A DNA stretch of 38,134 nt, taken from the IMG/VR virus record IMGVR_UViG_3300025288_000050, positions 1 to 38,134 of that record. One strand, 5' to 3'. A program made the position numbers and the translations under genes. Below the pieces are notes generated by a model. The model saw only the letters and a list, made by a program, of their open reading frames with translations, was not told the DNA's origin and did not search any database. Within the stretch, counting starts at the first letter, position 1. Every line of letters begins with the position of its first letter. Below, one piece after another: positions 1-38,134 of this stretch. This stretch comes from a virus.

Positions 1-127
1 TGGTTTTTCCGCACTGTTACCTATCACTGTGTGGGTAAAGTAGTTAAACGCTTTGGACAATTCTTCCAACTGGAAGATGCTTCTTGGGTAGCGGACAGTG
101 GACGCTTTATGCAAGCCATTAAAGATG
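1..127. repeat. Terminal direct repeat identical to 38008-38134 (circular-assembly overlap)
   Basis: tggtttttccgcactgttacc...gccattaaagatg is present at both extremities, 127/127 identical by eye. Implies a unique length of 38,007 bp. Confidence 0.95.
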
Positions 128-234: not shown

Positions 235-510
235 ATGAATATAGTTATCCTAGAAATCGGGTCTAGGTCTAGGTCTAGGTCTTGGTCTAAGTCTAAGTCT
301 TGGTCTGGGTCTTGGTCTGGGTCTAGGTCTAGATCTAGGTCTGGGTCTTGGTCTAAGTCTAAGTCTGGGTCTTGGTCTAGGTCTAGGTCTAGGTCTAGGT
401 CTGGGATTTGGTCTTGGTCTAGGTCTGGGTATTGGTCTAGGTCTGGGTCTTGGTCTGGGTCTTGGTCTAGGTCTGGGTCTAGGTCTGGGTCTAGATCTGG
501 GTCTACATAA
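235..510 (+). CDS. Questionable ORF encoding an (X-Ser)41 dipeptide repeat (X = R/W/K/G)
   Basis: ATG 235 lies 3 nt after the upstream stop and there is no SD. The ORF consists almost entirely of the microsatellite. Four of six frames are open across the array, so openness alone is weak evidence. Confidence 0.25.
   Translation: MNIVILEIGSRSRSRSWSKSKSWSGSWSGSRSRSRSGSWSKSKSGSWSRSRSRSRSGIWSWSRSGYWSRSGSWSGSWSRSGSRSGSRSGST
259..504. repeat. Hexanucleotide microsatellite (NGGTCT) x41
   Basis: 41 head-to-tail 6-bp units. The GGTCT core is nearly invariant (exceptions are aagtct, agatct, gggatt, gggtat) and N is a, t or g, never c. A ~60-bp higher-order pattern is visible (R R R W K K W G W G, then R R R G W K K G W, in the ATG frame). 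Confidence 0.95.
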
Positions 511-950
511 TTAACTCAATTCCCCAACCATTGCAGCACCGCAAGGATTGGGCTGGCACGAGCTTCCACAGGCAGACTGCCATAAGACGGTGGAGATAGC
601 GTCTAACTATCCCAGTGGCCAGGGGGCAGAAGACAGGTCGGTGCAGACCTTGCCCCCTGTGGGATTAACCCCTTCACACGGGCTTGGGTGGAAAATTTAT
701 CAGCCAGAGCTGGTATGAATTCTCCTCCACCTAAGTCCATGTGAGGTGGTTAGTCGCTTGCTTCCAGTGATTGTCTGGCAGAGCCGGATTTTGGAAAGGT
801 TTGTTATGGTGGGTTTTATACCTGTCCGTTGTGAAGAACCCGACCGCTGGAAATAGGCAAGTTAACCCTTCTCCCACCCTCTCGGATGTAAAGAGACGGT
901 CAAGCTCTTTATCGACGCACCACATCCGAGGTGGTAGGAGGGAGGTTAAG
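511..950 (+). ncRNA. Candidate structured RNA / long structured 5' leader of the mini-protein operon
   Basis: About 440 nt, visibly GC-rich, with no ORF that has an SD. Stable hairpins: 619-661 (8-bp GGGGGCA/TGCCCCC helix plus inner AGGTC/GACCT), 727-749 (CCACCT/AGGTGG) and 764-778 (CCAG/CTGG). A long-range 12-13-bp helix pairs 720-732 with 929-942, abutting the SD at 941-945. Confidence 0.35.
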
Positions 951-1169
951 ATGTCAATCGAACGCTCTTTTTTCTACAAAGACGGGAAGCGCGAGTTCTG
1001 TGTCATTAAGTACACGGACAGCCAAGATGGGAGTGTCACAATCGAAAGGAAGAAGTGTGGCGACGGGTGTACGGAGTTAACCCTTTGCTCGCTCTTGCCA
1101 AGGGACATCAAATTCCAACGCTCGGGGGAAAACTATGCCGCTCATTATCAAGCTCCTAAAGTGCTCTAA
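951..1169 (+). CDS. Mini-protein 1 (72 aa, 4 Cys)
   Basis: GGAGG at 941-945 is 5 nt upstream of ATG 951. Sequence: MSIERSFFYKDGKREFCVIKY...KKCGDGCTELTLC. Confidence 0.65.
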   Translation: MSIERSFFYKDGKREFCVIKYTDSQDGSVTIERKKCGDGCTELTLCSLLPRDIKFQRSGENYAAHYQAPKVL

Positions 1170-1365
1170 GTGCTCGGGTCTGGCTGGCTGTATCACTGAA
1201 GATGCCGGTATCTATTCCGTGCTTCGCTACTGCGAGCGCTGCGACAAGAAGGACACCTGCTATCTGCCAGAAGATTTTTTTAACATCTGCTCCCAAAAAT
1301 GCTATAATGATAGCAAGAAGGGAGGAGAGGATGTCACCAAGGAGAAAAAGACTGCCTCGACATGA
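1135..1365 (+). CDS. Mini-protein 2, Cys-rich zinc-ribbon-like (76 aa)
   Basis: GGGGGAA lies upstream of ATG 1135. Motifs CSKC...CERC plus further Cys. Overlaps mini-protein 1 by 35 nt. Confidence 0.6.
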   Translation: MPLIIKLLKCSKCSGLAGCITEDAGIYSVLRYCERCDKKDTCYLPEDFFNICSQKCYNDSKKGGEDVTKEKKTAST

Positions 1366-1567
1366 TGAAGGGTATCTCAGGCGTTGCAAAAAGTGTGGCA
1401 ACACTTCACTCGGCTGTATCTTGTTTCTGATGCGCAAGCTCCAGTATCGGGGCTTCTGCGACATCTGCGACTACATCTTCGACCCGAACTGTCCCAAGGT
1501 CTCGGGTCATCAAGGAGTAGTTTCATCGACTTGCCAAACTTGTCGAGAAAAGGAGACAGCCCGATGA
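1331..1567 (+). CDS. Mini-protein 3, Cys-rich zinc-ribbon-like (78 aa)
   Basis: GGAGGAGAGG lies immediately upstream of ATG 1331. Motifs CKKC...CDIC...CQTC. Confidence 0.65.
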   Translation: MSPRRKRLPRHDEGYLRRCKKCGNTSLGCILFLMRKLQYRGFCDICDYIFDPNCPKVSGHQGVVSSTCQTCREKETAR

Positions 1568-1755
1568 GGAAAACCCACTGTGAAAAATGTCAGCGTCAGA
1601 CACTTCACACTGAAGGGGTGGCACAGCGCGATGGCGGCAAGCTCTTTAAGCCATTGACCTGCATTGTCTGCGGCAAACAGCACTTCGTCGAGAAGGAAGA
1701 CCCCTTGAAGGCGGAGTACCAGCGGTTGATAAGGCGGAAGGAGGTAAAACAATGA
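1564..1755 (+). CDS. Mini-protein 4, CxxC-x25-CxxC zinc ribbon (63 aa)
   Basis: AAGGAG is 8 nt upstream. ATGA start/stop overlap with mini-protein 3. Motifs CEKC...CIVC. Confidence 0.7.
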   Translation: MRKTHCEKCQRQTLHTEGVAQRDGGKLFKPLTCIVCGKQHFVEKEDPLKAEYQRLIRRKEVKQ

Positions 1756-1835
1756 TGGGTTCAGCCATCGTCATTTTCTTCTTCACCTTACTCGCTATTG
1801 CCATCATTACCGGAGGTTTTAGGGGGAAGCGATGA
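1752..1835 (+). CDS. Mini-protein 5, single-pass membrane peptide (27 aa)
   Basis: GAAGGAGG is 7 nt upstream of ATG 1752. Sequence MMGSAIVIFFFTLLAIAIITGGFRGKR. The start overlaps the stop of mini-protein 4 and the stop overlaps the start of mini-protein 6. Confidence 0.5.
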   Translation: MMGSAIVIFFFTLLAIAIITGGFRGKR

Positions 1836-2029
1836 AGATAGGAAAGTGTCCTTTCAATTGCTTTCATTCTTGGTGGTGCAAGCCGAAAGAGGAGAAAGTC
1901 TGCAAGGACTTTATCGGGACTTGTCCCAAAGCTCACGGCAAGATGAAAAAGTTGAAAAGACAGGGCAGTTGGCGTATCTTCAAGTGCCGTGTCTGTGGCT
2001 ATCAGATGGCGGTACAGGAGGAACAATGA
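1832..2029 (+). CDS. Mini-protein 6, CCCH-type zinc-finger-like (65 aa)
   Basis: AGGGGGA SD and ATGA coupling. WWCKPKEEKVCKDFIGTCPKAH gives C-x7-C-x6-C-x3-H spacing. Also CPFNC and CRVC pairs. Confidence 0.65.
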   Translation: MKIGKCPFNCFHSWWCKPKEEKVCKDFIGTCPKAHGKMKKLKRQGSWRIFKCRVCGYQMAVQEEQ

Positions 2030-2247
2030 AATCCCTGAATACCCTAGTGGTGTGTAACTGGTTTGTTCATCTTCACCCCTCACCGGCTCCTTTACTCATT
2101 GGTTGCAAATCAAGCAAAGAGGTGCGCTCATGCCGTGGTTGCCTTGGCGATCCAAAAAGGTGCCTGCAAGAAAACTCACGGTGGAGTCATACCCTTTGTC
2201 CGAAATGCAACGCCCATTTCGAGACGCTTCACATGGACGAAATGTAG
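2026..2247 (+). CDS. Mini-protein 7, Cys/His-rich (73 aa)
   Basis: AGGAGG is 4 nt upstream of ATG 2026. ATGA overlap with mini-protein 6. Motifs CRGC...CPKCNAH. Confidence 0.6.
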   Translation: MKSLNTLVVCNWFVHLHPSPAPLLIGCKSSKEVRSCRGCLGDPKRCLQENSRWSHTLCPKCNAHFETLHMDEM

Positions 2248-2285
2248 AGGCTTGGGACTGGCCTAGAAACAGTCCCAATTATTTT

Positions 2286-2426
2286 ATGAAATGCAAAAGG
2301 TGTCAGGGGAAATTAAAAGAATGTGATAAACTACTTACCGATAGGGTTCATTGTTTAAGATGTTATTTAATTCTTCAACAACTATGCCGGTTATTATCGG
2401 AAACGGAGACGTCGGAAAAGCGTTAA
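2286..2426 (+). CDS. Possible mini-protein 8, CxxC...CxxC (46 aa)
   Basis: MKCKRCQGKLKEC...HCLRCY. No SD, and it overlaps the start of the next gene by about 43 nt. Confidence 0.3.
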   Translation: MKCKRCQGKLKECDKLLTDRVHCLRCYLILQQLCRLLSETETSEKR

Positions 2427-3133
2427 ACAAAGTTCTGAGCAATAAATTTTCAACTGTAGTCTTTGATCGTGAAGACGATTTACTTCCATTGGAAGGTGAA
2501 TCTCTTCATATTTGTTTTCCGTACTCCCAATCTTTTGTTAAGGAAGTTAAACGCTATATCAAATTCTTTAAGCCATCGTTCGTCGTTATTCACTCGACAG
2601 TTCCTTGTGGAACATGTAACAAAATAGATGAATTTGTTGTCCATTCTCCGATTCGGGGAAGACACCAGGAGCTAGAGAAATCATTGAAAACTTTTGTCAA
2701 ATATGTTGCCTCTCATTCCAAAGTTGCCAGGAATCTTGCGCGAAAAGAACTGGAACAAGTAGGATTGAAAGTTAAAACTTTCGATGATCCAAGGATAACT
2801 GAACTGGCAAAGATTTTATCCACAACTTATTATGGGTTGTGTATTATTTTTGCCAAGGAGGTTGAAAAGTTGTGTCAAAAATATAATTTGTCTTTCGATA
2901 AAGTTTATTCTGAATGGAATAAAACTTACAATGAAGGATATTCAAAGATGAATCTGTTTCAATTTGTCAGACCTATTCTTAAAGCAACCGCGGGAGAAAT
3001 CGGCGGCCATTGTGTTATCCCGAATGCCCGGATTTTAAGGGATGAATTTGTTCTTGCCAAACAATTATTGAAATTAAATGACAGTTATGGATTACATCTA
3101 TCCCCATTTGGTTGTAAGGAACGCGAGGACTGA
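2384..3133 (+). CDS. UDP-glucose/GDP-mannose dehydrogenase-family protein, short form
   Basis: N-terminal Rossmann motif PVIIGNGDVG. Central helix ELAKILSTTYYGLCIIFAKEVEKLC and catalytic-Cys-like GGHCVIPN match the family pattern. It ends about 30 aa after that Cys, so the C-terminal sugar-nucleotide domain seems absent. The start could be 2351 or 2360. Confidence 0.55.
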   Translation: MPVIIGNGDVGKALNKVLSNKFSTVVFDREDDLLPLEGESLHICFPYSQSFVKEVKRYIKFFKPSFVVIHSTVPCGTCNKIDEFVVHSPIRGRHQELEKSLKTFVKYVASHSKVARNLARKELEQVGLKVKTFDDPRITELAKILSTTYYGLCIIFAKEVEKLCQKYNLSFDKVYSEWNKTYNEGYSKMNLFQFVRPILKATAGEIGGHCVIPNARILRDEFVLAKQLLKLNDSYGLHLSPFGCKERED

Positions 3134-3281
3134 ATGGATTGAGGAGATGATTGAGCCTTTTATTGATGGCCAACGGGGGATTTTAAATTTCGGCACAAGC
3201 AAATGGTTTAAAGGTTTGGATAATAACAAAATTAATTTCCCCGGCCACCCTGGAGTTGAGGTTGTATATTATGAAAACTGA
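3078..3281 (+). CDS. Hypothetical small protein
   Basis: ORF only. It fills the gap between two confident genes, the start is uncertain and no domain was recognised. Confidence 0.3.
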   Translation: MTVMDYIYPHLVVRNARTEWIEEMIEPFIDGQRGILNFGTSKWFKGLDNNKINFPGHPGVEVVYYEN

Positions 3282-3936
3282 AATTATTGTTGTCACTTAT
3301 AAACAACCTGAGTATGAGGCACGGTGTTTAAAGAGTGTTATTGAATGCACTAAAGATTTTCAACTTACATTATGGGACAATCGAGTAGACAATATCCCAT
3401 TATCTAAACTTTGGAATAAACTGACAGAGGAATCTAACAAAGAATATATTTGTTTGTTGAATTCTGACACTGTAGTCACCCCCAATTGGCTGGAAAAACT
3501 TGAATCGACTCTAGACAATAATCCTGAATGTGGGGCTGTAATGCCTTGTTCAAATGTTGTTGGAGTGACGGAAGCCAGAATAGAAATACCTTATAATCGA
3601 TATACAAAAGACACCCAAGAAGTCTATGATTTCAAGTTTAATCCACTCGGGGAAATAACCGCCGGATGCCTTTCCGGTTTTTGTCTATTATACCGAAAGA
3701 AGGTTTGGGAGGAAGTAGGCAAATTTGACGAGGACTTTATTTTCTACGGTGAGGATTCAGAATTTACTAGACGGATAGCAAAAAGTAATTGGCACTTAAG
3801 AATTAATAAGAATGTTTTTGTCCACCATTACGGGGGAGTTTCGGCAGAAGCAGCCAACGATGATTGCCACGACAAATTTAACCGGCAGGAAATGGTAAAA
3901 TTCTCCCGAGAATTATATAAGAAAAAAATCCTATGA
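3271..3936 (+). CDS. Family 2 glycosyltransferase (GT-A fold)
   Basis: IIVVTYKQPE start, LLNSDTVV (DxD-type) and FYGEDSEFTRR motifs. ATG 3271 preferred over TTG 3256. Confidence 0.8.
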   Translation: MKTEIIVVTYKQPEYEARCLKSVIECTKDFQLTLWDNRVDNIPLSKLWNKLTEESNKEYICLLNSDTVVTPNWLEKLESTLDNNPECGAVMPCSNVVGVTEARIEIPYNRYTKDTQEVYDFKFNPLGEITAGCLSGFCLLYRKKVWEEVGKFDEDFIFYGEDSEFTRRIAKSNWHLRINKNVFVHHYGGVSAEAANDDCHDKFNRQEMVKFSRELYKKKIL

Positions 3937-4460
3937 AATTAAACTTAGGTTGCGGTGGCGACCATAAGGCGGGGTATATAAATGTAGATATTGACCCGAC
4001 TAGCCAACCGGATTTAGTAGCCGATGTTTTAAACCTACCCTACCAAGAGGGAGGTGTTGATGAGATAGTGGCCGAGCACCTTCTGGAGCATTTAACGAGG
4101 GAAGAAGGATTAAAGGCTCTAGCTCATTGGTCTAGTTTGCTTAAGCCCGGAGGGATTATCGAGATTGAAACTCCAGATATTAAACGGACTTGCTACGAGT
4201 TTTCACAATTGACAAATGAAGAGATAAAAAAATTGCATGTCAATTTTAATTCCCCGGCCTATGAAATTGTCGGGCGTGTCCTAAACATTTACGGAAACCA
4301 ACGAGATCCATGGCAGTTCCATAAATGGGGTTATTGGTTAGAGTACTGGGAGGCGATAGTTTCCAATTTAAACCTTACTATAATCGACCATTCTTCCGGA
4401 AAGACTTATCATGAAAAAGAAGAACCATGCTTATGGATAAGACTCCAAAAATTGCCTTAA
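3933..4460 (+). CDS. Class I SAM-dependent methyltransferase
   Basis: MKLNLGCGG motif I near the N-terminus, followed by VDEIVAEHLLEHL. ATGA-type overlap with the upstream GT. Confidence 0.8.
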   Translation: MKLNLGCGGDHKAGYINVDIDPTSQPDLVADVLNLPYQEGGVDEIVAEHLLEHLTREEGLKALAHWSSLLKPGGIIEIETPDIKRTCYEFSQLTNEEIKKLHVNFNSPAYEIVGRVLNIYGNQRDPWQFHKWGYWLEYWEAIVSNLNLTIIDHSSGKTYHEKEEPCLWIRLQKLP

Positions 4461-5392
4461 TTGGAGGTTATAAATTTGCGGCCTTTGCCCACTCTTGGAA
4501 GGGACAGATGCAAGCGTTAAAAAAAATGGACATCCCTCACATCATCCTCGATTCCCGCGATGATTCTTTAGAGCATATTGTCGGTGAGTGTACAGCGTTT
4601 CAGCCGGACATTATTTTGCACGGCCTATCCGATTCGTTCAACACTGATATGATTGACCAATTAAGGGCGAATTGCCCCAAAGCCAAACAGATCTGGTGGT
4701 ATTGTGATTATGCGGCAATAGGGACTGGTGATTTGGAAAATTGTAATGTCGCCAAGAAAAAGCAAACGGGGAATCTTGATTTCATGCTTCTTACCAATTC
4801 GGAACAGATACCCTACTACGAAGAAACCCTAGGCATTCCTTGCTATTTTTTACCTCAAGCGGGATTGCTAATGGACGAGTTACCACCGATTGATGAGAGG
4901 TATTCAAACATTGATGTTTTGTTTGTCGGTAACCTTGAGAAAAATCCAATTCATTCTAAACGCACTCAATTTCTAAATACGATTAAAGATGCTTGCCAAG
5001 CGGGGGGACTGAACTTTCAGGTGTTTCCCCAAGGGATGAATTTAAAGGATTGTTATGACACCCAACATTTAATTTATCGTAATGCTAAGGTAGCTTTGAA
5101 TCTATCCCACCTAAATGATAAAAAGAATTACTCCTCCGCTCGTCTATGGTACGGGGCCTGTGTTGGTGGACTCATGCTTTCAGCAAATTATCCGGGCATC
5201 AGAGACCAATTCCCTATGGTCCCAACATTTAATTGGCCAGATGTCTTGGAATGTTTGGAGAAAATAAGATATTTAATTGAACATCAAGAGGAGATGGAGA
5301 AACTTCGATCTGAGATTTTCACTCACGCTCAAAAATATCACACCTATTTAAATAGGTTTAAAAGCATCTTTGCTTTATGCCGTGGTCAGTAA
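4427..5392 (+). CDS. CgeB-like glycosyltransferase (GT-B, Glyco_trans_1_2/DUF3880-like)
   Basis: DVLFVGN...KRTQFLN...AKVALNLSH...SARLWYGACVGG...YHTYLNRF follows the CgeB-family pattern as I remember it. Confidence 0.65.
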   Translation: MLMDKTPKIALIGGYKFAAFAHSWKGQMQALKKMDIPHIILDSRDDSLEHIVGECTAFQPDIILHGLSDSFNTDMIDQLRANCPKAKQIWWYCDYAAIGTGDLENCNVAKKKQTGNLDFMLLTNSEQIPYYEETLGIPCYFLPQAGLLMDELPPIDERYSNIDVLFVGNLEKNPIHSKRTQFLNTIKDACQAGGLNFQVFPQGMNLKDCYDTQHLIYRNAKVALNLSHLNDKKNYSSARLWYGACVGGLMLSANYPGIRDQFPMVPTFNWPDVLECLEKIRYLIEHQEEMEKLRSEIFTHAQKYHTYLNRFKSIFALCRGQ

Positions 5393-6030
5393 TAATACCG
5401 GTTTGCCTGATTAACGATGAATTGACTGCGATGTTCATTGAATGTTTGGAATCGTTAAACAGGCGAAAGAATAAATTCGAATTGATCGTCGTCGAGAACG
5501 GTTCGGACTTGGTTGAAGCCGATCGGAGAACCAAGGTCATAAAATTCCCTAAACCAATAGGTTACGCTCGCGCCGTGAATGCCGGCCTGAAAAAAGCAAT
5601 GGGAGATAGAATTCTGATAATCAACTCTGATGCTACTTTAGTCACACCGAATTGGCAGGGAGAGCTTGACAAAGTTTTCGATATGTGCTTTAATACGGGG
5701 CTGGTAATTCCCGATTTAAAGAACGCTGGGGAGACTGCATTTACCAGTCAATTAGTGGGACCGTGCTGGGCGGTAAGTAAGAGCATGGTGAATGTCCTCG
5801 GTTTTTTACCTGAAGTCTATGCTGAGGGTTATTATGAAGATACGGAATATTACTTGAGAGCCAAGCAGGATGGCTGGTTAATTAAATCTTGCCGCGATGT
5901 ACGAGTATTGCATAAGGGACAATCAACTTTCAAAGCCCTTTATAACAGTGAAAAAATCCGTTCCCTCTCGGAAAAAAACCACGGGTTATATTTAGAACGA
6001 AATAATTCACAGTTTCCAGAGTTCACTTGA
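5377..6030 (+). CDS. Family 2 glycosyltransferase (GT-A fold)
   Basis: SVIIPV, ELIVVENGSD, GYARAVNAG, LIINSDA and YYEDTEY motifs. Confidence 0.8.
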   Translation: MPWSVIIPVCLINDELTAMFIECLESLNRRKNKFELIVVENGSDLVEADRRTKVIKFPKPIGYARAVNAGLKKAMGDRILIINSDATLVTPNWQGELDKVFDMCFNTGLVIPDLKNAGETAFTSQLVGPCWAVSKSMVNVLGFLPEVYAEGYYEDTEYYLRAKQDGWLIKSCRDVRVLHKGQSTFKALYNSEKIRSLSEKNHGLYLERNNSQFPEFT

Positions 6031-15036: not shown

Positions 15037-15234
15037 TTACTTATTAACAAAATCAGGGACAGGGCTTAACTCAGAAACCCGGGCGAATTTGGCTAGGGCT
15101 GCTAAGACTAAACCTACTACTATTTTAACACTTTCTGCCTCAATCTTAAAGACTGAAATTAAAAACCATGCGACGAGGACGACGACCAAGAGCTCTAAGA
15201 CGTGCATTAAGGTACTGAATAATTCGGCTTTCAT
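15037..15234 (-). CDS. Holin-like small membrane protein
   Basis: 65 aa with two hydrophobic segments (LELLVVVLVAWFLISVF, IVVGLVLAALAKF). Directly downstream of the peptidase gene. Confidence 0.55.
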   Translation of the reverse strand: MKAELFSTLMHVLELLVVVLVAWFLISVFKIEAESVKIVVGLVLAALAKFARVSELSPVPDFVNK

Positions 15235-15246
15235 AAATTTAGATTT

Positions 15247-16272
15247 TTAACGATTAATTAAACTTTCAGGATTAGTGCGTTCAAAATTGAAGTCGAATAA
15301 ATGCTTTCCAGTGCGCCTCCAATTAAAACAATCATTTATAACGTCCCCAGGTTTCCAAATCGGCCACGGTTTATAATAGTGGGAATTGTACGAATCGTAT
15401 GAAATGGCATTGACATAGACTGTCCAAAACTTTCCGGCCGCTTCCCACACACTCTGGTTGTTAAATTTCTTAAACTCGCGCTCCAATTCGTTTGCCACTT
15501 CTTTTTCCTTGCTCAAATTCCTAGGCTTACCATAATGGTCAAGGCAATATTGAAACTCATTTTGTTGGGTTTCTTCTTTTTTCTTACGCCAATCCGGCGG
15601 TAAATCAAGTATGCACCAAGCGTTGTAAAATTCGTAGCTTGCATCCAGGTGATGATACCCGTTAAAACCTAACTCGCGCTCCAAACTGTCAAAAACAATC
15701 CAACTGCCTTCGTCCCAGCCGACCAGTAACACAGCGTGGTTATCCCTAACCTGATTCCGTTTCGCACGATATTCAAAGTAGCCACGGGTTGCATCAACCC
15801 CAACCAGCAAAGCCCCGTATTGAACCACTGCCGATTGTGTTTCTTCGCTGTTATTAGCGACCCTGGCATAACCTGGAATTTTCCATTTACCGACCAACTG
15901 GTCAGAGCGAAGCTTCAAATCTTCCCATTCGGCCAAATCGTATAAATCGCTAGGCATTGGCAATTCTTCATAATCGACCAATCCTTTCGTTCTCGCCGCC
16001 TCAAGAATTGCCCTGAAATATGTCCCTTTCTTATTGCCACCGGACTTAAAGAATAAATCCGCTTGGCTGTATTCGTCTTCAAACTCGCTTTTGGTCTCAA
16101 TCAACTTTGTCCCAGAAAACGCCGCACAGAACGGCCAACCCCCCTGATTCTCAAACCTTAGGTTTGGAATTATGAATTGACTAGGCACTTCAACCGATGA
16201 TCCGGCAACCGGTAATTCATCTAACCACAAATCTCGCTTGTCTATTGGGTTTGGTAGAAGGCCGTAGTTCAT
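15247..16272 (-). CDS. Papain-like (C1 family) cysteine peptidase, candidate endolysin
   Basis: VPSQFIIPNLRFENQGGWPFCAAFSG parallels the papain Q...C-x-x-W-A-F-S active-site block. DNHAVLLVGWDEGSWIVFDS parallels the His block. ATG 16272 preferred over TTG 16281. Confidence 0.6.
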   Translation of the reverse strand: MNYGLLPNPIDKRDLWLDELPVAGSSVEVPSQFIIPNLRFENQGGWPFCAAFSGTKLIETKSEFEDEYSQADLFFKSGGNKKGTYFRAILEAARTKGLVDYEELPMPSDLYDLAEWEDLKLRSDQLVGKWKIPGYARVANNSEETQSAVVQYGALLVGVDATRGYFEYRAKRNQVRDNHAVLLVGWDEGSWIVFDSLERELGFNGYHHLDASYEFYNAWCILDLPPDWRKKKEETQQNEFQYCLDHYGKPRNLSKEKEVANELEREFKKFNNQSVWEAAGKFWTVYVNAISYDSYNSHYYKPWPIWKPGDVINDCFNWRRTGKHLFDFNFERTNPESLINR

Positions 16273-16281
16273 AAGAAACAA

Positions 16282-17144: not shown

Positions 17145-18335
17145 TCAAATTATCAGAATCGAATTTTTATGATTCACAAAAATTGATTTTCCTCCTGGAG
17201 TAGAGGGAGGAGTTAATTCAACCGTAAAGGTCTGGACGAAACCGTCAGAATTAACATCAGTCCAGAAACATACATAATGTCCTGCATCTATTTTTACTGA
17301 GCTTAAATCTGTAGCTTGAGTAGTATCAAACTCAAGGGAAGCAGTTGTTGTTGTAATAGCCCAAGTTGAAGTATCTATTGTGAAAACCTGAACATACCCG
17401 TAGAAACTATTTCCAGAGAAGAAATTTATAAAATGATTATCGTCTATTTGCTGACAAGAATGTCTATATCCATTGACGGTATCAAATTCTAATGCACTTG
17501 AAGCAGTAGAAATCGCCCAAGTTGATGTATTTATCGTAACGACTTGAACAAAACCATCACCAGCAGCTCCTTGATAAAATATAACAGCATGATTTGAATC
17601 AATCATTTCAACTGAATTACCACCACCACCGGAACCTACCGCTCCAATTTGAAATTTTGCCTGTGCAGTAGAAATCGCCCAAGTTGAAGTATTAACAACC
17701 ATAACTTGCGTTTGCAAACCTGTCCCTGAAAGTGCCCAGACAGCAAGAATGTGGTTACTATCAATTTGAACACAGGAACTATGTGGAGAATTTAGGGTAG
17801 TTTCAATAGTCAACAATGAACCTGAAGTAGTGACTGCCCAAGTTGAAGTGTTGACTGCAAGAATAATCACATCGAGCTCTGAGCTAGGACCGCCACCGAA
17901 CATACTCAAAAAATGGTTGGCATCAACTCCAACTATTGCATTTACCTCTGGTTCATGGGTAACAGTTGTCGTATCATAAACAAAAGATGAATTTGATGTA
18001 GTAACTGCCCAAGTGGTTGTATTTACTTCAAAGACCTGCGCTCTTGCACTGTTAGTATTACACCAATTTGAAATAAAATGATTTGAATCAATTTGTGCAA
18101 GACCTAATTTCAAACTATTTGTCGTCTGAATACCGACTAAAGCTGTTCCAACAGTAGTAACCGCCCAAGTCGAAGTATTCACTGCAAAAACTTGTAAAAC
18201 AGAATTATTTGCAGTTGCCCCAATAAATGAGTTAACAAAATGATTGGTGTCAATATTGACCGATGAATTGTAAGATCCATTAACGGTATCAAACTCCAAG
18301 CTAGTGGCGGCAGTTGTTACATCATAGGTTGCCAT
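17145..18335 (-). CDS. Seven-repeat beta-propeller-like virion protein
   Basis: 396 aa. About 50-aa repeats, each with an (I/V)D(S/T/A)NH(F/I) block and then QVF-VNTSTWA(V/I)TT. Six clear copies plus one degenerate copy. Confidence 0.6.
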   Translation of the reverse strand: MATYDVTTAATSLEFDTVNGSYNSSVNIDTNHFVNSFIGATANNSVLQVFAVNTSTWAVTTVGTALVGIQTTNSLKLGLAQIDSNHFISNWCNTNSARAQVFEVNTTTWAVTTSNSSFVYDTTTVTHEPEVNAIVGVDANHFLSMFGGGPSSELDVIILAVNTSTWAVTTSGSLLTIETTLNSPHSSCVQIDSNHILAVWALSGTGLQTQVMVVNTSTWAISTAQAKFQIGAVGSGGGGNSVEMIDSNHAVIFYQGAAGDGFVQVVTINTSTWAISTASSALEFDTVNGYRHSCQQIDDNHFINFFSGNSFYGYVQVFTIDTSTWAITTTTASLEFDTTQATDLSSVKIDAGHYVCFWTDVNSDGFVQTFTVELTPPSTPGGKSIFVNHKNSILII

Positions 18336-18990
18336 ACGGATTCCATTTAATCGCCTTCATTTGCGTGAAGTGAATTGGCTTAATGCGTTCGTCCAACCAA
18401 ATTTCAAAGCCGAGATCAACGGCTCGCTCGCAAAACTCAGCGTCCTCGCTCATTGTCCGCCGTTGGCCGTCAACAGTGACATCGCCAAACTCAAACATTA
18501 AGTCCTGATGTTTTTTATTCATCGCCTCCAACACCTTCCGTTTAATCAGCATACAGCCGGTTCCACCTGCATCAATTTTGTGCAAAGGCCCTTCGTCTTT
18601 GAAGGAAACAATGTTCTTATAAATTCTAAGATAATTCTTTTTGATTTTTTTCTTCTCCGAGTAGAAGGCGCAAAGCGAGTAGTTTCCATCGGGATCGGGG
18701 TTTCTGGCTAAAATCGGGGCAATCACTATGTCCTTATCGTCCTCAATGAATTGGGCAAGTGTTTCAGGCGGAACAGGATTATCGTCATCAACCATAAAGA
18801 CATAATCAAATCCGCCCTTTAACGCTTCCATCGCAATTCCATTTCGGCATTTATCAACCCTTTGACGAACAACAGGCAAGAAAGCACAAGGGAACGGTTT
18901 ATGCAGTTGCAGTAAAGACTGAACCATCTCGACTGGAACTTGACCGCTGCCATTTGGCATTCCGATAAGTATTTTCTTGCTATCTGCCAT
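18322..18990 (-). CDS. GT-A fold glycosyltransferase
   Basis: FDYVFMVDDDNPV (DxD) and MSEDAEFCERAVDLGFEIWLD motifs. 222 aa. Confidence 0.65.
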   Translation of the reverse strand: MADSKKILIGMPNGSGQVPVEMVQSLLQLHKPFPCAFLPVVRQRVDKCRNGIAMEALKGGFDYVFMVDDDNPVPPETLAQFIEDDKDIVIAPILARNPDPDGNYSLCAFYSEKKKIKKNYLRIYKNIVSFKDEGPLHKIDAGGTGCMLIKRKVLEAMNKKHQDLMFEFGDVTVDGQRRTMSEDAEFCERAVDLGFEIWLDERIKPIHFTQMKAIKWNPYGNL

Positions 18991-34232: not shown

Positions 34233-34395
34233 GTAAAGTGAGGTGTGCTGACGAGATTTATGCATCGTCTGCATACTCTACTGATCAAGACGTCCGCTAT
34301 TAACTCCAAAACCTGCGGGTTAGATCATCTCCTGTAGTGCGGTTTAACAGCAACCCTTGATTGGTGGAGCATGTACATGTAATTAGAACTTCTCT

Positions 34396-34548
34396 ATGTC
34401 TTTTTATTTCGAATACTTGTCGGTTCTTAAAGAAATAGAGCCTGAAGCCTATGAGGTTTTAGGCAAAATGATTAAAGGTTCCTGTTGCCCGCATGAACGG
34501 TTGGATGCTTTTGGAACCTGCCTCGTTTGTTATTTAGACATCACTTAA
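34396..34548 (+). CDS. Cys-rich mini-protein (50 aa)
   Basis: MSFYFEYLSVLKEIEPEAYEVLGKMIKGSCCPHERLDAFGTCLVCYLDIT. The stop is 2 nt before the next ATG. Confidence 0.35.
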   Translation: MSFYFEYLSVLKEIEPEAYEVLGKMIKGSCCPHERLDAFGTCLVCYLDIT

Positions 34549-34550
34549 AT

Positions 34551-35273
34551 ATGGCGGGGTTCAAACTAAATAAGCGTAACTATTTTAGTAAGAAGCGTCC
34601 GCATCTTTCGGTCTCACAAATTAATGATTATATTTTCAATCCAGAATATTACAAAGCTAGGTACATAAATCTTTCTATTACCACCAAAGTTACCGACGCC
34701 ATGAAACTCGGGACTTTAGTTGATGAATTATTAACTGAAGGGAAGACGCGATTGAAGCGGGGTAAGAAATCAAAAAAGCTGACCGAACACCAGTTGGAGA
34801 AAGTAGTTAGTGAAACTATCTGGGAACGCGGCCAAGCGATTGCAGAATTTGTTTCCAAACATCCGTTTTGGCAGTCCCTAATGGGAAAAAAGGGGGTGAA
34901 AAAACAGTTAATTTTGGAGGGGTTTTTGGATGGTTTATTGATTTGTGGTAAACCCGATTTGGTGATTGATCCCGACATCTTAATTGATTTGAAGGTTTCT
35001 GGAGCTACGCATGTTAAAAACCCAAATAAATGGCATTATCATTGTCTTGATATGGGTTATTACCGGCAATTTGCCATGTATAAAACACTTCTCGGGCAGT
35101 CTTTTGAGACCCCTTCATACCACCTAACGGTGTCCGAAACCGCTCCAGAGTTTTATGAACTGAAACTTTTCAAAGCTGATTATGAGTATGTCAAAATTGC
35201 CTTTGATGAGATTAAAGACGCCGTAAGTGGGATTAAGGAGGGGAAGTTCAACGCAAAAGAGTTAACTTTATAA
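34551..35273 (+). CDS. PD-(D/E)XK nuclease (RecB/Cas4-like exonuclease fold)
   Basis: GKPDLVIDPDILIDLKVSG gives D...D-x-K. Tyr-rich C-terminal part YYRQFAMY. ATG 34551 preferred over TTG 34527. Confidence 0.6.
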   Translation: MAGFKLNKRNYFSKKRPHLSVSQINDYIFNPEYYKARYINLSITTKVTDAMKLGTLVDELLTEGKTRLKRGKKSKKLTEHQLEKVVSETIWERGQAIAEFVSKHPFWQSLMGKKGVKKQLILEGFLDGLLICGKPDLVIDPDILIDLKVSGATHVKNPNKWHYHCLDMGYYRQFAMYKTLLGQSFETPSYHLTVSETAPEFYELKLFKADYEYVKIAFDEIKDAVSGIKEGKFNAKELTL

Positions 35274-37893: not shown

Positions 37894-38134
37894 ATGTCGC
37901 CCACAATTGAAATCTCAGAGGAAATATTAAACAAAATCAAAGAACAGTTAGGTGATGACTACAAGTTGAAAGAGCTTGATTGCCTTGATGACCTTATTGG
38001 TCAAAAATGGTTTTTCCGCACTGTTACCTATCACTGTGTGGGTAAAGTAGTTAAACGCTTTGGACAATTCTTCCAACTGGAAGATGCTTCTTGGGTAGCG
38101 GACAGTGGACGCTTTATGCAAGCCATTAAAGATG
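37894..38134 (+). CDS. Hypothetical protein, 5' part of a junction-spanning gene (continues at position 128 on the circular map)
   Basis: ATG 37894 opens MSPTIEISEEILNKIKEQLGDDYKLKELDCLDDLIGQKWFFRTVTYHC..., which runs off the window end in the same frame as ORF 1-231. No domain recognised. Confidence 0.6.
   Translation, partial: MSPTIEISEEILNKIKEQLGDDYKLKELDCLDDLIGQKWFFRTVTYHCVGKVVKRFGQFFQLEDASWVADSGRFMQAIKD
38008..38134. repeat. Terminal direct repeat identical to 1-127
   Basis: Same 127-nt string as the window start. Confidence 0.95.

What the first reader, a model, noticed from the sequence alone, without database searches (positions are those of the whole stretch)
951..2426. Operon of seven to eight translationally coupled mini-proteins (27-78 aa), six of them Cys-rich, one with CCCH-finger spacing
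Each of the first seven ORFs has its own GGAGG-type SD, and four consecutive junctions are ATGA-type start/stop overlaps (1564, 1752, 1832, 2026). These look like real genes, not noise among the many overlapping track ORFs. Six carry paired CxxC or C/H clusters (zinc ribbons). Mini-protein 6 has C-x7-C-x6-C-x3-H (WWCKPKEEKVCKDFIGTCPKAH), the spacing of CCCH RNA-binding fingers that are mainly known from eukaryotes. One is a 27-aa membrane peptide. Such a dense battery of zinc mini-proteins behind a structured leader suggests a host-takeover, anti-defence or RNA-binding module that has no annotation-level explanation.
Basis: partly seen in the sequence, partly recalled or inferred. Interest (0 to 1): 0.6.

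Follow-up and report, generated by a model that had tools for sequence, protein, structure and literature searches.

The report
Mobile cassette of phage zinc mini-proteins
An uncultured 38-kb phage carries a tightly packed, horizontally exchanged block of seven tiny genes (plus an eighth next to it), most encoding cysteine-rich, probably zinc-binding proteins with no known relatives; they look like real accessory genes, but their function is unknown and the proposed eukaryote-like RNA-binding finger is not supported.

Summary
Window 951-2426 carries eight small + strand ORFs of 72, 76, 78, 63, 27, 65, 73 and 46 aa, with four consecutive ATGA stop/start overlaps. Five of the first seven have a clear SD. 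Cys makes up 8.8% of residues, against 1.0% in the phage's long genes, and there are 12 CxxC motifs against 0.4 in shuffles.

New here: m1-m7 form a discrete mosaic block (863-2280). It is GC-richer than its flanks and SD-rich in an almost SD-free genome. It starts at an 88-nt hairpin that pairs the m1 SD and ends at a terminator-like hairpin. The block recurs at about 98% identity in a different phage of over 60 kb that shares only patches with this one. In some variants an orphan DNA methyltransferase gene sits exactly at its 5' edge.

m8 lies outside the block. Its diverged homologue (36% identity) keeps both CxxC pairs.

No mini-protein matches Pfam, PHROGs, NCBIfam, PADLOC or PDB. An exhaustive HMMER search with m6 found only its own variants. 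The m4 model is a generic zinc ribbon. The CCCH reading of m6 rests on spacing alone.

Best reading: a moron-like accessory operon of ORFan zinc-ribbon mini-proteins, probably host-directed. The function is inferred, not shown. It is a new member of a known kind, of moderate interest.

The parts
862..949 (+). 88-nt hairpin at the 5' edge of the cassette; it pairs the m1 SD (GGAGGGAGG, 937-945) with CCCUUCUCCC (866-875)
   Evidence: dG -39 kcal/mol, z -4.3, 0 of 200 shuffles fold as well. The high-identity block with L001 begins at 863. The only paired-position change among variants (869 U to C) turns U-G into C-G.
951..1169 (+). m1, 72 aa, 4 Cys (C-x18-C-x3-C-x5-C), strong SD
   Evidence: SNPs: 2 synonymous, 1-2 non-synonymous. 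A public gene call gives exactly this ORF.
1135..1365 (+). m2, 76 aa, 8 Cys (CxxC-x5-C-x13-CxxC-x5-C-x9-C-x3-C), weak G-rich SD, overlaps m1 by 35 nt
   Evidence: The in-frame 6-nt indel variant keeps both Cys.
1331..1567 (+). m3, 78 aa, 8 Cys with spacing nearly parallel to m2, basic N-terminus, strong SD, overlaps m2 by 35 nt
   Evidence: Two SNPs in the m2/m3 overlap are synonymous in m3 and non-synonymous in m2.
1564..1755 (+). m4, 63 aa, classical CxxC-x23-CxxC zinc ribbon plus C-terminal helix; ATGA overlap with m3
   Evidence: pLDDT 77.8; best match NrdR N-terminal zinc ribbon, Z 4.2, rmsd 2.7 A over 43 aa. 3 of 3 SNPs are synonymous.
1752..1835 (+). m5, 27-aa hydrophobic peptide with RGKR tail; ATGA overlap with m4
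   Evidence: Identical in all variants.
1832..2029 (+). m6, 65 aa, 7 Cys and 2 His (CPxxC ... C-x7-C-x6-C-x3-H ... CxxCG); ATGA overlap with m5
   Evidence: only near-identical variants among 1.84 billion representatives. Three non-synonymous SNPs cluster in residues 40-46; none is at Cys or His.
2026..2247 (+). m7, 73 aa, 7 Cys and 5 His (CxxC-x6-C-x11-CxxC-x2-H); ATGA overlap with m6
   Evidence: Public gene callers took a 149-aa TTG extension instead.
2252..2285 (+). Terminator-like hairpin (9-bp stem, 9-nt loop) followed by a U-rich tract; 3' edge of the high-identity block
   Evidence: dG -15.5, z -2.4. Identity with L001 decays from 2281 on.
2286..2426 (+). m8, 46 aa, CxxC-x6-C-x9-CxxC-x7-C, no SD; overlaps the next gene (start 2384) by 43 nt; outside the mobile block
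   Evidence: The homologue in L001 (5455-5565) has 36% identity (z 6.0 against shuffles) and keeps the two CxxC pairs only.
863..2280 (.). Mosaic block shared at about 98% nucleotide identity with an otherwise dissimilar phage contig of over 60 kb and with four short metagenome contigs
   Evidence: GC is about 0.50, against 0.35-0.42 downstream.

Best explanation
Shown: the window is a complete, circularly assembled phage genome of about 38.0 kb. Positions 863-2280 form a self-contained accessory cassette of seven translationally coupled genes (m1-m7). It is bounded by a 5' hairpin that sequesters the first SD and by a 3' terminator-like hairpin. It differs from its flanks in composition and is exchanged at about 98% identity with an otherwise unrelated phage.

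Five or six of its products are ORFan, basic, cytoplasmic mini-proteins with paired Cys knuckles of the zinc-ribbon type. One is a 27-aa membrane peptide. m8 is a separate, older zinc-ribbon gene just downstream.

Inferred: the cassette behaves like a multi-gene moron. Its products most likely act as small stoichiometric binders of host components (nucleic acid or protein), in host takeover or counter-defence. They are less likely to be regulators of the phage's own genes. Translation of m1 would be gated by opening of the hairpin, and the downstream genes would follow by termination-reinitiation at the ATGA junctions.
For: Coding signals are described under the observation check.

The block edges coincide with the two hairpins. 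GC is 0.50 against 0.35-0.42 downstream.

Only 2 of 25 long phage genes have an SD core, against 5 of 7 cassette genes. The flanks in the second phage are likewise SD-poor and AT-rich.

The second phage (G001, 60.9 kb, CheckV 84% complete) shares only patches with the window.

An N6_N4 DNA methyltransferase gene (PF01555, E 1.8e-43) is present or absent exactly at 862/863 among variants. This marks the site as a variable accessory locus.

The m4 model is a zinc ribbon. The m8 homologue keeps its four knuckle Cys. All eight proteins have pI 8.1-12.

Exchange between phages with different replication and structural genes argues for a host-directed role rather than a phage-specific one (inference).
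Against: There is no functional evidence at all. No homologue of known function was found.

Metal binding is inferred from motifs only. One of the two folds failed (m6, pLDDT 62).

No promoter-like site was found upstream on the + strand, so independent transcription is not shown.

Codon usage fits the phage poorly. Strong SDs in an SD-poor genome could mean the block is a recent, poorly expressed arrival.

Relatives are all at least 97% identical, so conservation of Cys and His is not really tested. None of about 13 amino-acid changes hits one, but by my own arithmetic on the counts the chance of that is about 0.2.

Paralogy among the mini-proteins is not significant after correction.
Confidence: 0.55

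Rival explanations
1. The mini-proteins are regulators of the phage's own gene expression. They would be small zinc-finger activators of late transcription or translation, in the manner of P2 Ogr / P4 Delta or Mu Com. m8 would control the glycan cassette whose first gene it overlaps.
For: The phage has no RNA polymerase gene among its long ORFs, so it needs factors to redirect the host enzyme. m4 has Ogr-like C4 spacing and size. m8 overlaps the start of the next gene by 43 nt. The proteins are basic. The atlas look-alikes of m6 include a cluster auto-named Ogr/Delta-like, at a score of 0.87, which is lead level only.
Against: No Ogr_Delta, Com or DksA/TraR family appears in Pfam even at E<=1. 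The cassette is swapped at 98% identity into a phage with different replication and structural modules, which is unexpected for regulators tied to specific phage promoters. The m8 homologue in that phage is the last + strand gene and has no glycan cassette behind it.
Confidence: 0.2
2. The cassette is a recent foreign arrival that is poorly or not at all expressed in this host. It would be effectively neutral cargo or decaying genes.
For: Its GC content and SD usage are foreign to both carrier phages. Its codon-usage score is below that of every long gene for most ORFs. It is found on only a handful of contigs from related samples.
Against: All eight frames are intact in every variant. Synonymous changes are in excess (P=0.009). 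The indel in m2 is in frame and keeps both Cys. The block is kept in two different phages and in recombinant variants.
Confidence: 0.12
3. One reading: m6 carries a genuine CCCH (C-x7-C-x6-C-x3-H) RNA-binding finger of the eukaryotic type.
For: The spacing is present at C16, C24, C31 and H35. From my own knowledge, it equals that of muscleblind-type fingers. One aromatic residue (F27) lies between the second and third Cys.
Against: No CCCH family hit in Pfam at E<=1. No PDB sequence hit to CCCH proteins at E<=10. The AF2 model is of low confidence and is helical over residues 18-35. Exhaustive phmmer found no CCCH protein. With 9 candidate ligands in 65 aa, a spacing match is weak evidence.
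Confidence: 0.06
4. The Cys-rich peptides are substrates of the downstream glycosyltransferase/methyltransferase cassette. They would be glycocin-like or RiPP-like modified peptides, or secreted disulfide-rich peptides.
For: Glycosyltransferase (GT2) and methyltransferase genes lie immediately downstream at 2384-6030. The peptides are small and Cys-rich.
Against: A terminator-like hairpin and the mosaic boundary separate the two blocks. The second phage has the cassette without the glycan genes. There are no signal or leader peptides, protease or exporter genes. CxxC pairs are typical of zinc knuckles, not of glycocin helical hairpins (my own knowledge).
Confidence: 0.03
5. m2, m4 and m7 are parts of one 372-aa protein read with TGA as Trp, as in one public ENA gene call.
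For: The three ORFs share a frame, with only TGA codons (1363, 1366, 1753) between them. P0022 is such a call.
Against: The phage's long genes are complete under table 11. The linker stretches are R/L/S-rich, typical of out-of-frame translation, whereas m3 and m6 in their own frames carry zinc-knuckle patterns, SDs and ATGA junctions.
Confidence: 0.02

Closest known systems
Small uncharacterised zinc-ribbon proteins of phages, and the N-terminal zinc ribbon of NrdR / MqsA-type proteins
   Same: m4 has two CxxC knuckles flanking a beta-hairpin, followed by a helix. The best structural matches are the NrdR zinc ribbon (Z 4.2, rmsd 2.7 A, 43 aa; Foldseek E 0.29) and many phage proteins of 50-75 aa in BFVD (best E 6e-3).
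   Different: There is no sequence-level relationship. The matches are weak and generic. NrdR and MqsA carry further domains that give them their function, and m4 has none.
Morons of tailed phages (accessory units flanked by promoter and terminator, with deviant composition; definition as given in PMC4378225)
   Same: The cassette lies between the replication and glycan modules. It has deviant GC and SD usage and a terminator-like 3' end. It is present in unrelated phages at near identity.
   Different: It holds seven coupled genes rather than one. No promoter was recognised. The carrier looks lytic (no integrase was seen in the ORFs scanned), so lysogenic conversion is unlikely.
P2 Ogr / P4 Delta late-gene activators and Mu Com translational activator
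   Same: These are single-domain C4 zinc proteins of 60-75 aa encoded by phages. Com overlaps the gene it controls, as m8 overlaps the next gene.
   Different: The Pfam models are not matched. The m8 homologue in the other phage has no downstream partner. The cassette is not linked to a late operon.
Zinc-finger micro-proteins of haloarchaea (CPxCG type, e.g. Brz, PMC2253796; small-proteome survey PMC10117724)
   Same: They are stand-alone proteins under 80 aa built from one or two C(P)xxC(G) knuckle pairs. Several act as regulators.
   Different: They are cellular, dispersed genes, not a coupled viral array. No homology is detectable.
Eukaryotic CCCH zinc fingers (TTP, muscleblind; reviewed in PMC5031192)
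   Same: The C-x7-C-x6-C-x3-H spacing occurs in m6.
   Different: There is no profile match and no fold support. m6 has extra Cys and His, and the stretch sits between the two knuckles of a likely zinc ribbon.

Membership tests
CCCH zinc finger (Pfam zf-CCCH and related) | C-x(7-8)-C-x(4-6)-C-x3-H ligand spacing | tested here: met
   m6 has C16-x7-C24-x6-C31-x3-H35.
CCCH zinc finger (Pfam zf-CCCH and related) | Match to a CCCH family profile | tested here: not met
   hmmscan against Pfam-A at E<=1 lists no CCCH family for m6. phmmer against PDB at E<=10 lists none.
CCCH zinc finger (Pfam zf-CCCH and related) | Compact loop-rich fold with the four ligands around one zinc | tested here: inconclusive
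   The AF2 single-sequence model has pLDDT 62.4 and a helix over residues 18-35. It is too poor to judge.
CCCH zinc finger (Pfam zf-CCCH and related) | Binding of single-stranded RNA | not testable with these tools
   Needs biochemistry.
Zinc ribbon (two CxxC knuckles on beta-hairpins) | Two CxxC-type knuckles separated by about 10-25 residues | tested here: met
   Present in m2, m3, m4, m7 and m8. m6 has CPxxC ... CxxCG.
Zinc ribbon (two CxxC knuckles on beta-hairpins) | Beta-hairpin fold resembling solved zinc ribbons | tested here: inconclusive
   The m4 model (pLDDT 77.8) has four strands plus a helix. The best matches are NrdR, TFIIB, Rpb9 and TFIIS ribbons, but with Z only 2.6-4.2 and Foldseek E 0.29. 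The other mini-proteins were not folded, or folded poorly.
Zinc ribbon (two CxxC knuckles on beta-hairpins) | Ligand Cys conserved in diverged relatives | tested here: met
   Tested for m8 only. The 36%-identical homologue keeps C3, C6, C23 and C26 and loses C13 and C34. For m1-m7, only variants at least 97% identical exist, which is uninformative.
Zinc ribbon (two CxxC knuckles on beta-hairpins) | Stoichiometric zinc binding | not testable with these tools
   Needs metal analysis.
Phage moron | Nucleotide composition different from adjacent genes | tested here: met
   GC is 0.49-0.52 in 501-2000, against 0.35-0.42 in 2501-6000. SD core: 5 of 7 cassette genes against 2 of 25 long genes.
Phage moron | Own terminator | tested here: inconclusive
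   A hairpin at 2252-2278 plus a U-rich tract, z -2.4. The loop of 9 nt falls outside the scan's rule. Function is not shown.
Phage moron | Own promoter | tested here: inconclusive
   No sigma-70-like site on the + strand in 511-950. The host's promoter type is unknown.
Phage moron | Present in some and absent from other related phages | tested here: inconclusive
   The block is shared by two otherwise dissimilar phages. No close relative lacking the block was found. A distant relative (MW202497.1) has no comparable array.
Ogr/Delta and Mu Com zinc-finger activators | Match to the family profile (Pfam Ogr_Delta, Com) | tested here: not met
   Neither is listed for any of the eight proteins at E<=1.

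The most novel reading that the evidence does not exclude
The block is a mobile 'arsenal' of several new zinc-binding protein families that passes between unrelated phages of one host and disables host defence or takes over host machinery. Its expression would be gated by an SD-sequestering hairpin and would depend on SD-led reinitiation in a host or phage background that otherwise hardly uses SDs.
Probability: 0.2. Interest if true: 0.6.

Novelty: new member of a known kind. Interest (0 to 1): 0.35.

Why it matters
Small ORFan genes in variable phage loci are where many anti-defence and host-takeover proteins have been found. A compact, clearly bounded and recently exchanged cassette of seven such genes is a convenient unit to clone and screen.

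The contrast between an SD-rich cassette and an SD-poor genome may also bear on how foreign genes are translated after transfer. As it stands, though, this is a set of uncharacterised zinc-ribbon mini-proteins, which is common in phage genomes. No specific new mechanism is demonstrated.

Tried and rejected
Searches that found nothing credible:
- Rfam, at gathering thresholds and at E<=1, gave nothing for 200-2500. No tRNA was found.
- Pfam, PHROGs, NCBIfam and PADLOC gave no credible hit for any mini-protein.
- PDB sequence searches with m3, m4 and m6 found nothing below E 0.2.
- tblastn of m1, m4 and m6 against 50,697 phage records found no match at E<=1. blastn of 500-2500 against the same records found none either.
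- The word-index protein search returned nothing for m3 and m7, and only m1 itself for m1.
- Exhaustive phmmer with m6 returned its own 95% variant plus four long repetitive Cys-rich proteins matched in short stretches. I judged these spurious.
- The ESM Atlas gave only sub-0.9 look-alikes of generic viral zinc-ribbon clusters.

Other steps that led nowhere:
- The genome-contig scan with m3 gave one hit in an Anaerolineales MAG. It lies antisense inside a 441-aa gene, so it is a chance match.
- The search for related loci with the neighbouring 249-aa gene found no relative in IMG/VR.
- Paralogy among m1-m8 by shuffle-controlled local alignment: m2/m3 (p 0.03) and m4/m6 (p 0.006) do not survive correction for 28 pairs.
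- A search for a comparable Cys-rich array in the nearest database phage by capsid (MW202497.1) found none.
- A Bacteroidota-type promoter pattern has 0 matches in the genome, so there is no host inference.
- The AF2 model of m6 was too poor to use.
Full report
CONTEXT

The window is the whole record. Its first and last 127 nt are identical (family D3), so it is a circular assembly of about 38,007 bp.

It is a tailed phage. A major head protein, portal, large terminase, SU10-type adaptor and an HNH endonuclease lie on the - strand. The capsid protein is only 28-34% identical to the nearest database phages.

The + strand runs from a divergent control region near 29.3 kb, through primase/helicase, primase-polymerase, exonuclease and helicase genes, across the record's ends. 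It then passes a hexanucleotide microsatellite (about 235-510, D1), a GC-rich ORF-free stretch (511-950), the mini-ORFs, and a glycosyltransferase/methyltransferase cassette (2384-6030).

THE OBSERVATION

All eight ORFs, their lengths and the four ATGA junctions at 1564, 1752, 1832 and 2026 are present as described. The m1/m2 and m2/m3 junctions each overlap by 35 nt.

A strict SD core is present for m1, m3, m4, m5 and m7. m2 and m6 have only G-rich runs, and m8 has none.

The Cys content is not chance. The mini-ORFs have 44 Cys in 500 residues and 12 CxxC motifs. Shuffles give 0.40 CxxC (maximum 4 in 2000). The phage's long genes have 2 CxxC and 1.0% Cys in 9,566 residues. Genome-wide, five of the eight stop-to-stop frames with at least two CxxC motifs lie in this 1.5 kb.

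Codon usage supports the annotated frames only weakly. Its score is below that of the phage's long genes.

RELATIVES AND POPULATION VARIATION

The only relatives found are near-identical. One is a 60,928-bp IMG/VR contig (loci L001, L006 and L007). The others are four short metagenome contigs (L002-L005), at 97.5-99.3% identity.

Among six aligned variants, 7 of 13 SNPs are synonymous in the annotated frames, where 21% is expected (P 0.009). In any single fixed frame, 3-4 of 13 are synonymous. In m4, 3 of 3 are synonymous.

A 6-nt in-frame indel changes the first knuckle of m2 from CxxC to CxxxxC and keeps both Cys.

No amino-acid change touches a Cys or His. With about 13 changes, this is not significant.

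Public gene callers independently called m1, m2, m4 and m6 exactly as here. They called m7 and m8 with N-terminal extensions.

THE CASSETTE AS A UNIT

The 60.9-kb contig (CheckV 84% complete) shares only patches with the window: 1-658, 863-2318, 15232-16274, 17214-18980 and a few short pieces. The two are therefore different phages that have exchanged modules recently.

High identity starts at 863 and decays from 2281. Both edges coincide with RNA hairpins.
- 862-949 folds into an 88-nt hairpin (dG -39, z -4.3) that pairs the m1 SD with CCCUUCUCCC.
- 2252-2278 is a 9-bp hairpin followed by a U-rich tract (z -2.4).
- The one variant position within a paired part of the 5' hairpin changes U-G to C-G.

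The block has GC of about 0.50, against 0.35-0.42 downstream. It uses SDs in a genome where only 2 of 25 long genes have one. The flanks in the other phage are likewise AT-rich and SD-poor.

In L001 and L003, a 243-aa N6_N4 DNA methyltransferase gene (PF01555, E 1.8e-43) is inserted so that its stop codon lies in the first bases of the hairpin. Window 659-806 is replaced there by a copy of window 34347-34622.

So the long 'structured leader' (511-955, z -5.7) is not a conserved unit with the operon. Only its last hairpin is.

This fits the published description of morons as accessory units with deviant composition and flanking signals (PMC4378225). The differences are that there are seven genes here and that no promoter was recognised.

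m8

m8 starts 8 nt after the hairpin, has no SD and lies in the AT-rich part. In the other phage it is replaced by a 37-aa homologue of 36% identity (z 6.0 against shuffles). That homologue keeps the two CxxC pairs but not the two extra Cys.

This is the only real test of ligand conservation, and it is met. There the homologue is the last + strand gene, so m8 is not tied to the glycan cassette whose first gene it overlaps here.

WHAT THE PROTEINS ARE

No mini-protein matches Pfam, PHROGs, NCBIfam or PADLOC, PDB sequences or 50,697 phage genomes.

phmmer of m6 against 1.84 billion representatives returned only its own variant, plus spurious repeats. The word-index searches with m1, m3 and m7 returned nothing else.

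m4 folds with moderate confidence (pLDDT 77.8) into four strands plus a helix. Its best matches are zinc ribbons (NrdR N-terminus at Z 4.2; TFIIB, Rpb9, TFIIS) and many small phage proteins. All are weak and generic.

m2 and m3 share an eight-Cys spacing, and m7 and m8 share CxxC-x6-C-x9/11-CxxC. Sequence-level paralogy is not significant.

All eight proteins are basic. m5 is a 27-aa hydrophobic peptide.

THE CCCH CLAIM

The spacing in m6 is real. However, no CCCH profile is matched, the model is poor (pLDDT 62.4, helix over 18-35), and m6 has nine candidate ligands. A CPxxC ... CxxCG pair could form a ribbon with a second site inside it.

The literature notes that CCCH fingers are essentially a eukaryotic RNA-binding device (PMC5031192). 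A spacing match alone does not place m6 among them.

MECHANISM

Shown: the genes are real. They form a bounded, mobile, compositionally foreign block. Their motifs are of the zinc-ribbon type.

Inferred: m1 translation is gated by the hairpin. Ribosomes ending at the methyltransferase stop codon, where that gene is present, would open it. Downstream genes are then translated by reinitiation at the overlaps.

Also inferred: the products are small binders directed at host components. The argument for a host-directed rather than a phage-directed role has two parts. The block moves between phages with different core genes, and it sits in a locus where another typical counter-defence gene (an orphan methyltransferase) comes and goes. 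This is guilt by association only.

RIVALS

Five rivals were considered: phage-directed regulators, silent cargo, a genuine CCCH finger, substrates of the glycan enzymes, and a TGA=Trp fusion (P0022). They are weighed in the Rival explanations section.

VERDICT

The feature is a new member of a known kind: ORFan zinc-ribbon mini-proteins in a moron-like phage cassette. Its function remains open.

Noticed in passing
whole window; starts of 25 long genes versus 951-2247: The phage's own genes almost never have an SD (2 of 25 with a GGAG/GAGG/AGGA core at -18..-4; their upstream regions are A/T-rich). The cassette has strong GGAGG-type SDs at 5 of 7 genes. The second carrier phage is SD-poor as well. 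The source of the cassette and the host's mode of translation initiation are unknown.
   Followed up: partly
L001 3297-4028 (inserted at window 862/863); also in L003: A 243-aa orphan N6_N4 DNA methyltransferase gene is a presence/absence polymorphism exactly at the 5' edge of the cassette. Its TAA stop lies in the first bases of the SD-sequestering hairpin, which suggests coupling of m1 translation to it.
   Followed up: partly
window 2103-2426: The frame of m8 is open from 2103. ATG 2130 has an SD-like GAGGTG 5 nt upstream. The resulting 98-aa ORF overlaps m7 by 118 nt and reads through the terminator-like hairpin. Public gene callers called it (P0026). The single SNP there (2192) is synonymous in this frame and non-synonymous in m7.
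   Followed up: partly
window 1135-2247: m2, m4 and m7 share one reading frame with only TGA codons between them. One ENA gene call (P0022, 372 aa) reads them as a single protein with TGA=Trp, most likely a code-4 artefact on a short contig.
   Followed up: yes
window 1280-1308: The best sigma-70-like site of the first 6.5 kb (TTAACA, 17 nt, TATAAT, with TG; 11 of 12) lies inside m2, just upstream of the m3 SD.
   Followed up: no
window 235-510 versus L001 2534-2797: The hexanucleotide microsatellite differs in length between variants (ORF of 91 against 87 codons, a 12-nt difference), so the array is length-polymorphic in the population.
   Followed up: no
window 34347-34622 versus L001 2948-3224: A 277-nt segment holding a 50-aa ORF lies in the replication module of the window. 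In the other phage it sits directly upstream of the cassette at 98% identity. This is further shuffling of small modules.
   Followed up: no
window 1-127 and 38008-38134: An exact 127-nt terminal overlap shows the record is a circular assembly. The 114-aa gene ending at 231 starts at 37894.
   Followed up: yes
window 15232-16274 and 17214-18980: Two further blocks (a 344-aa gene, and the repeat-protein gene together with the neighbouring 222-aa ORF) are shared at 95-98% identity with the 60.9-kb phage, although the surrounding structural genes are not.
   Followed up: no
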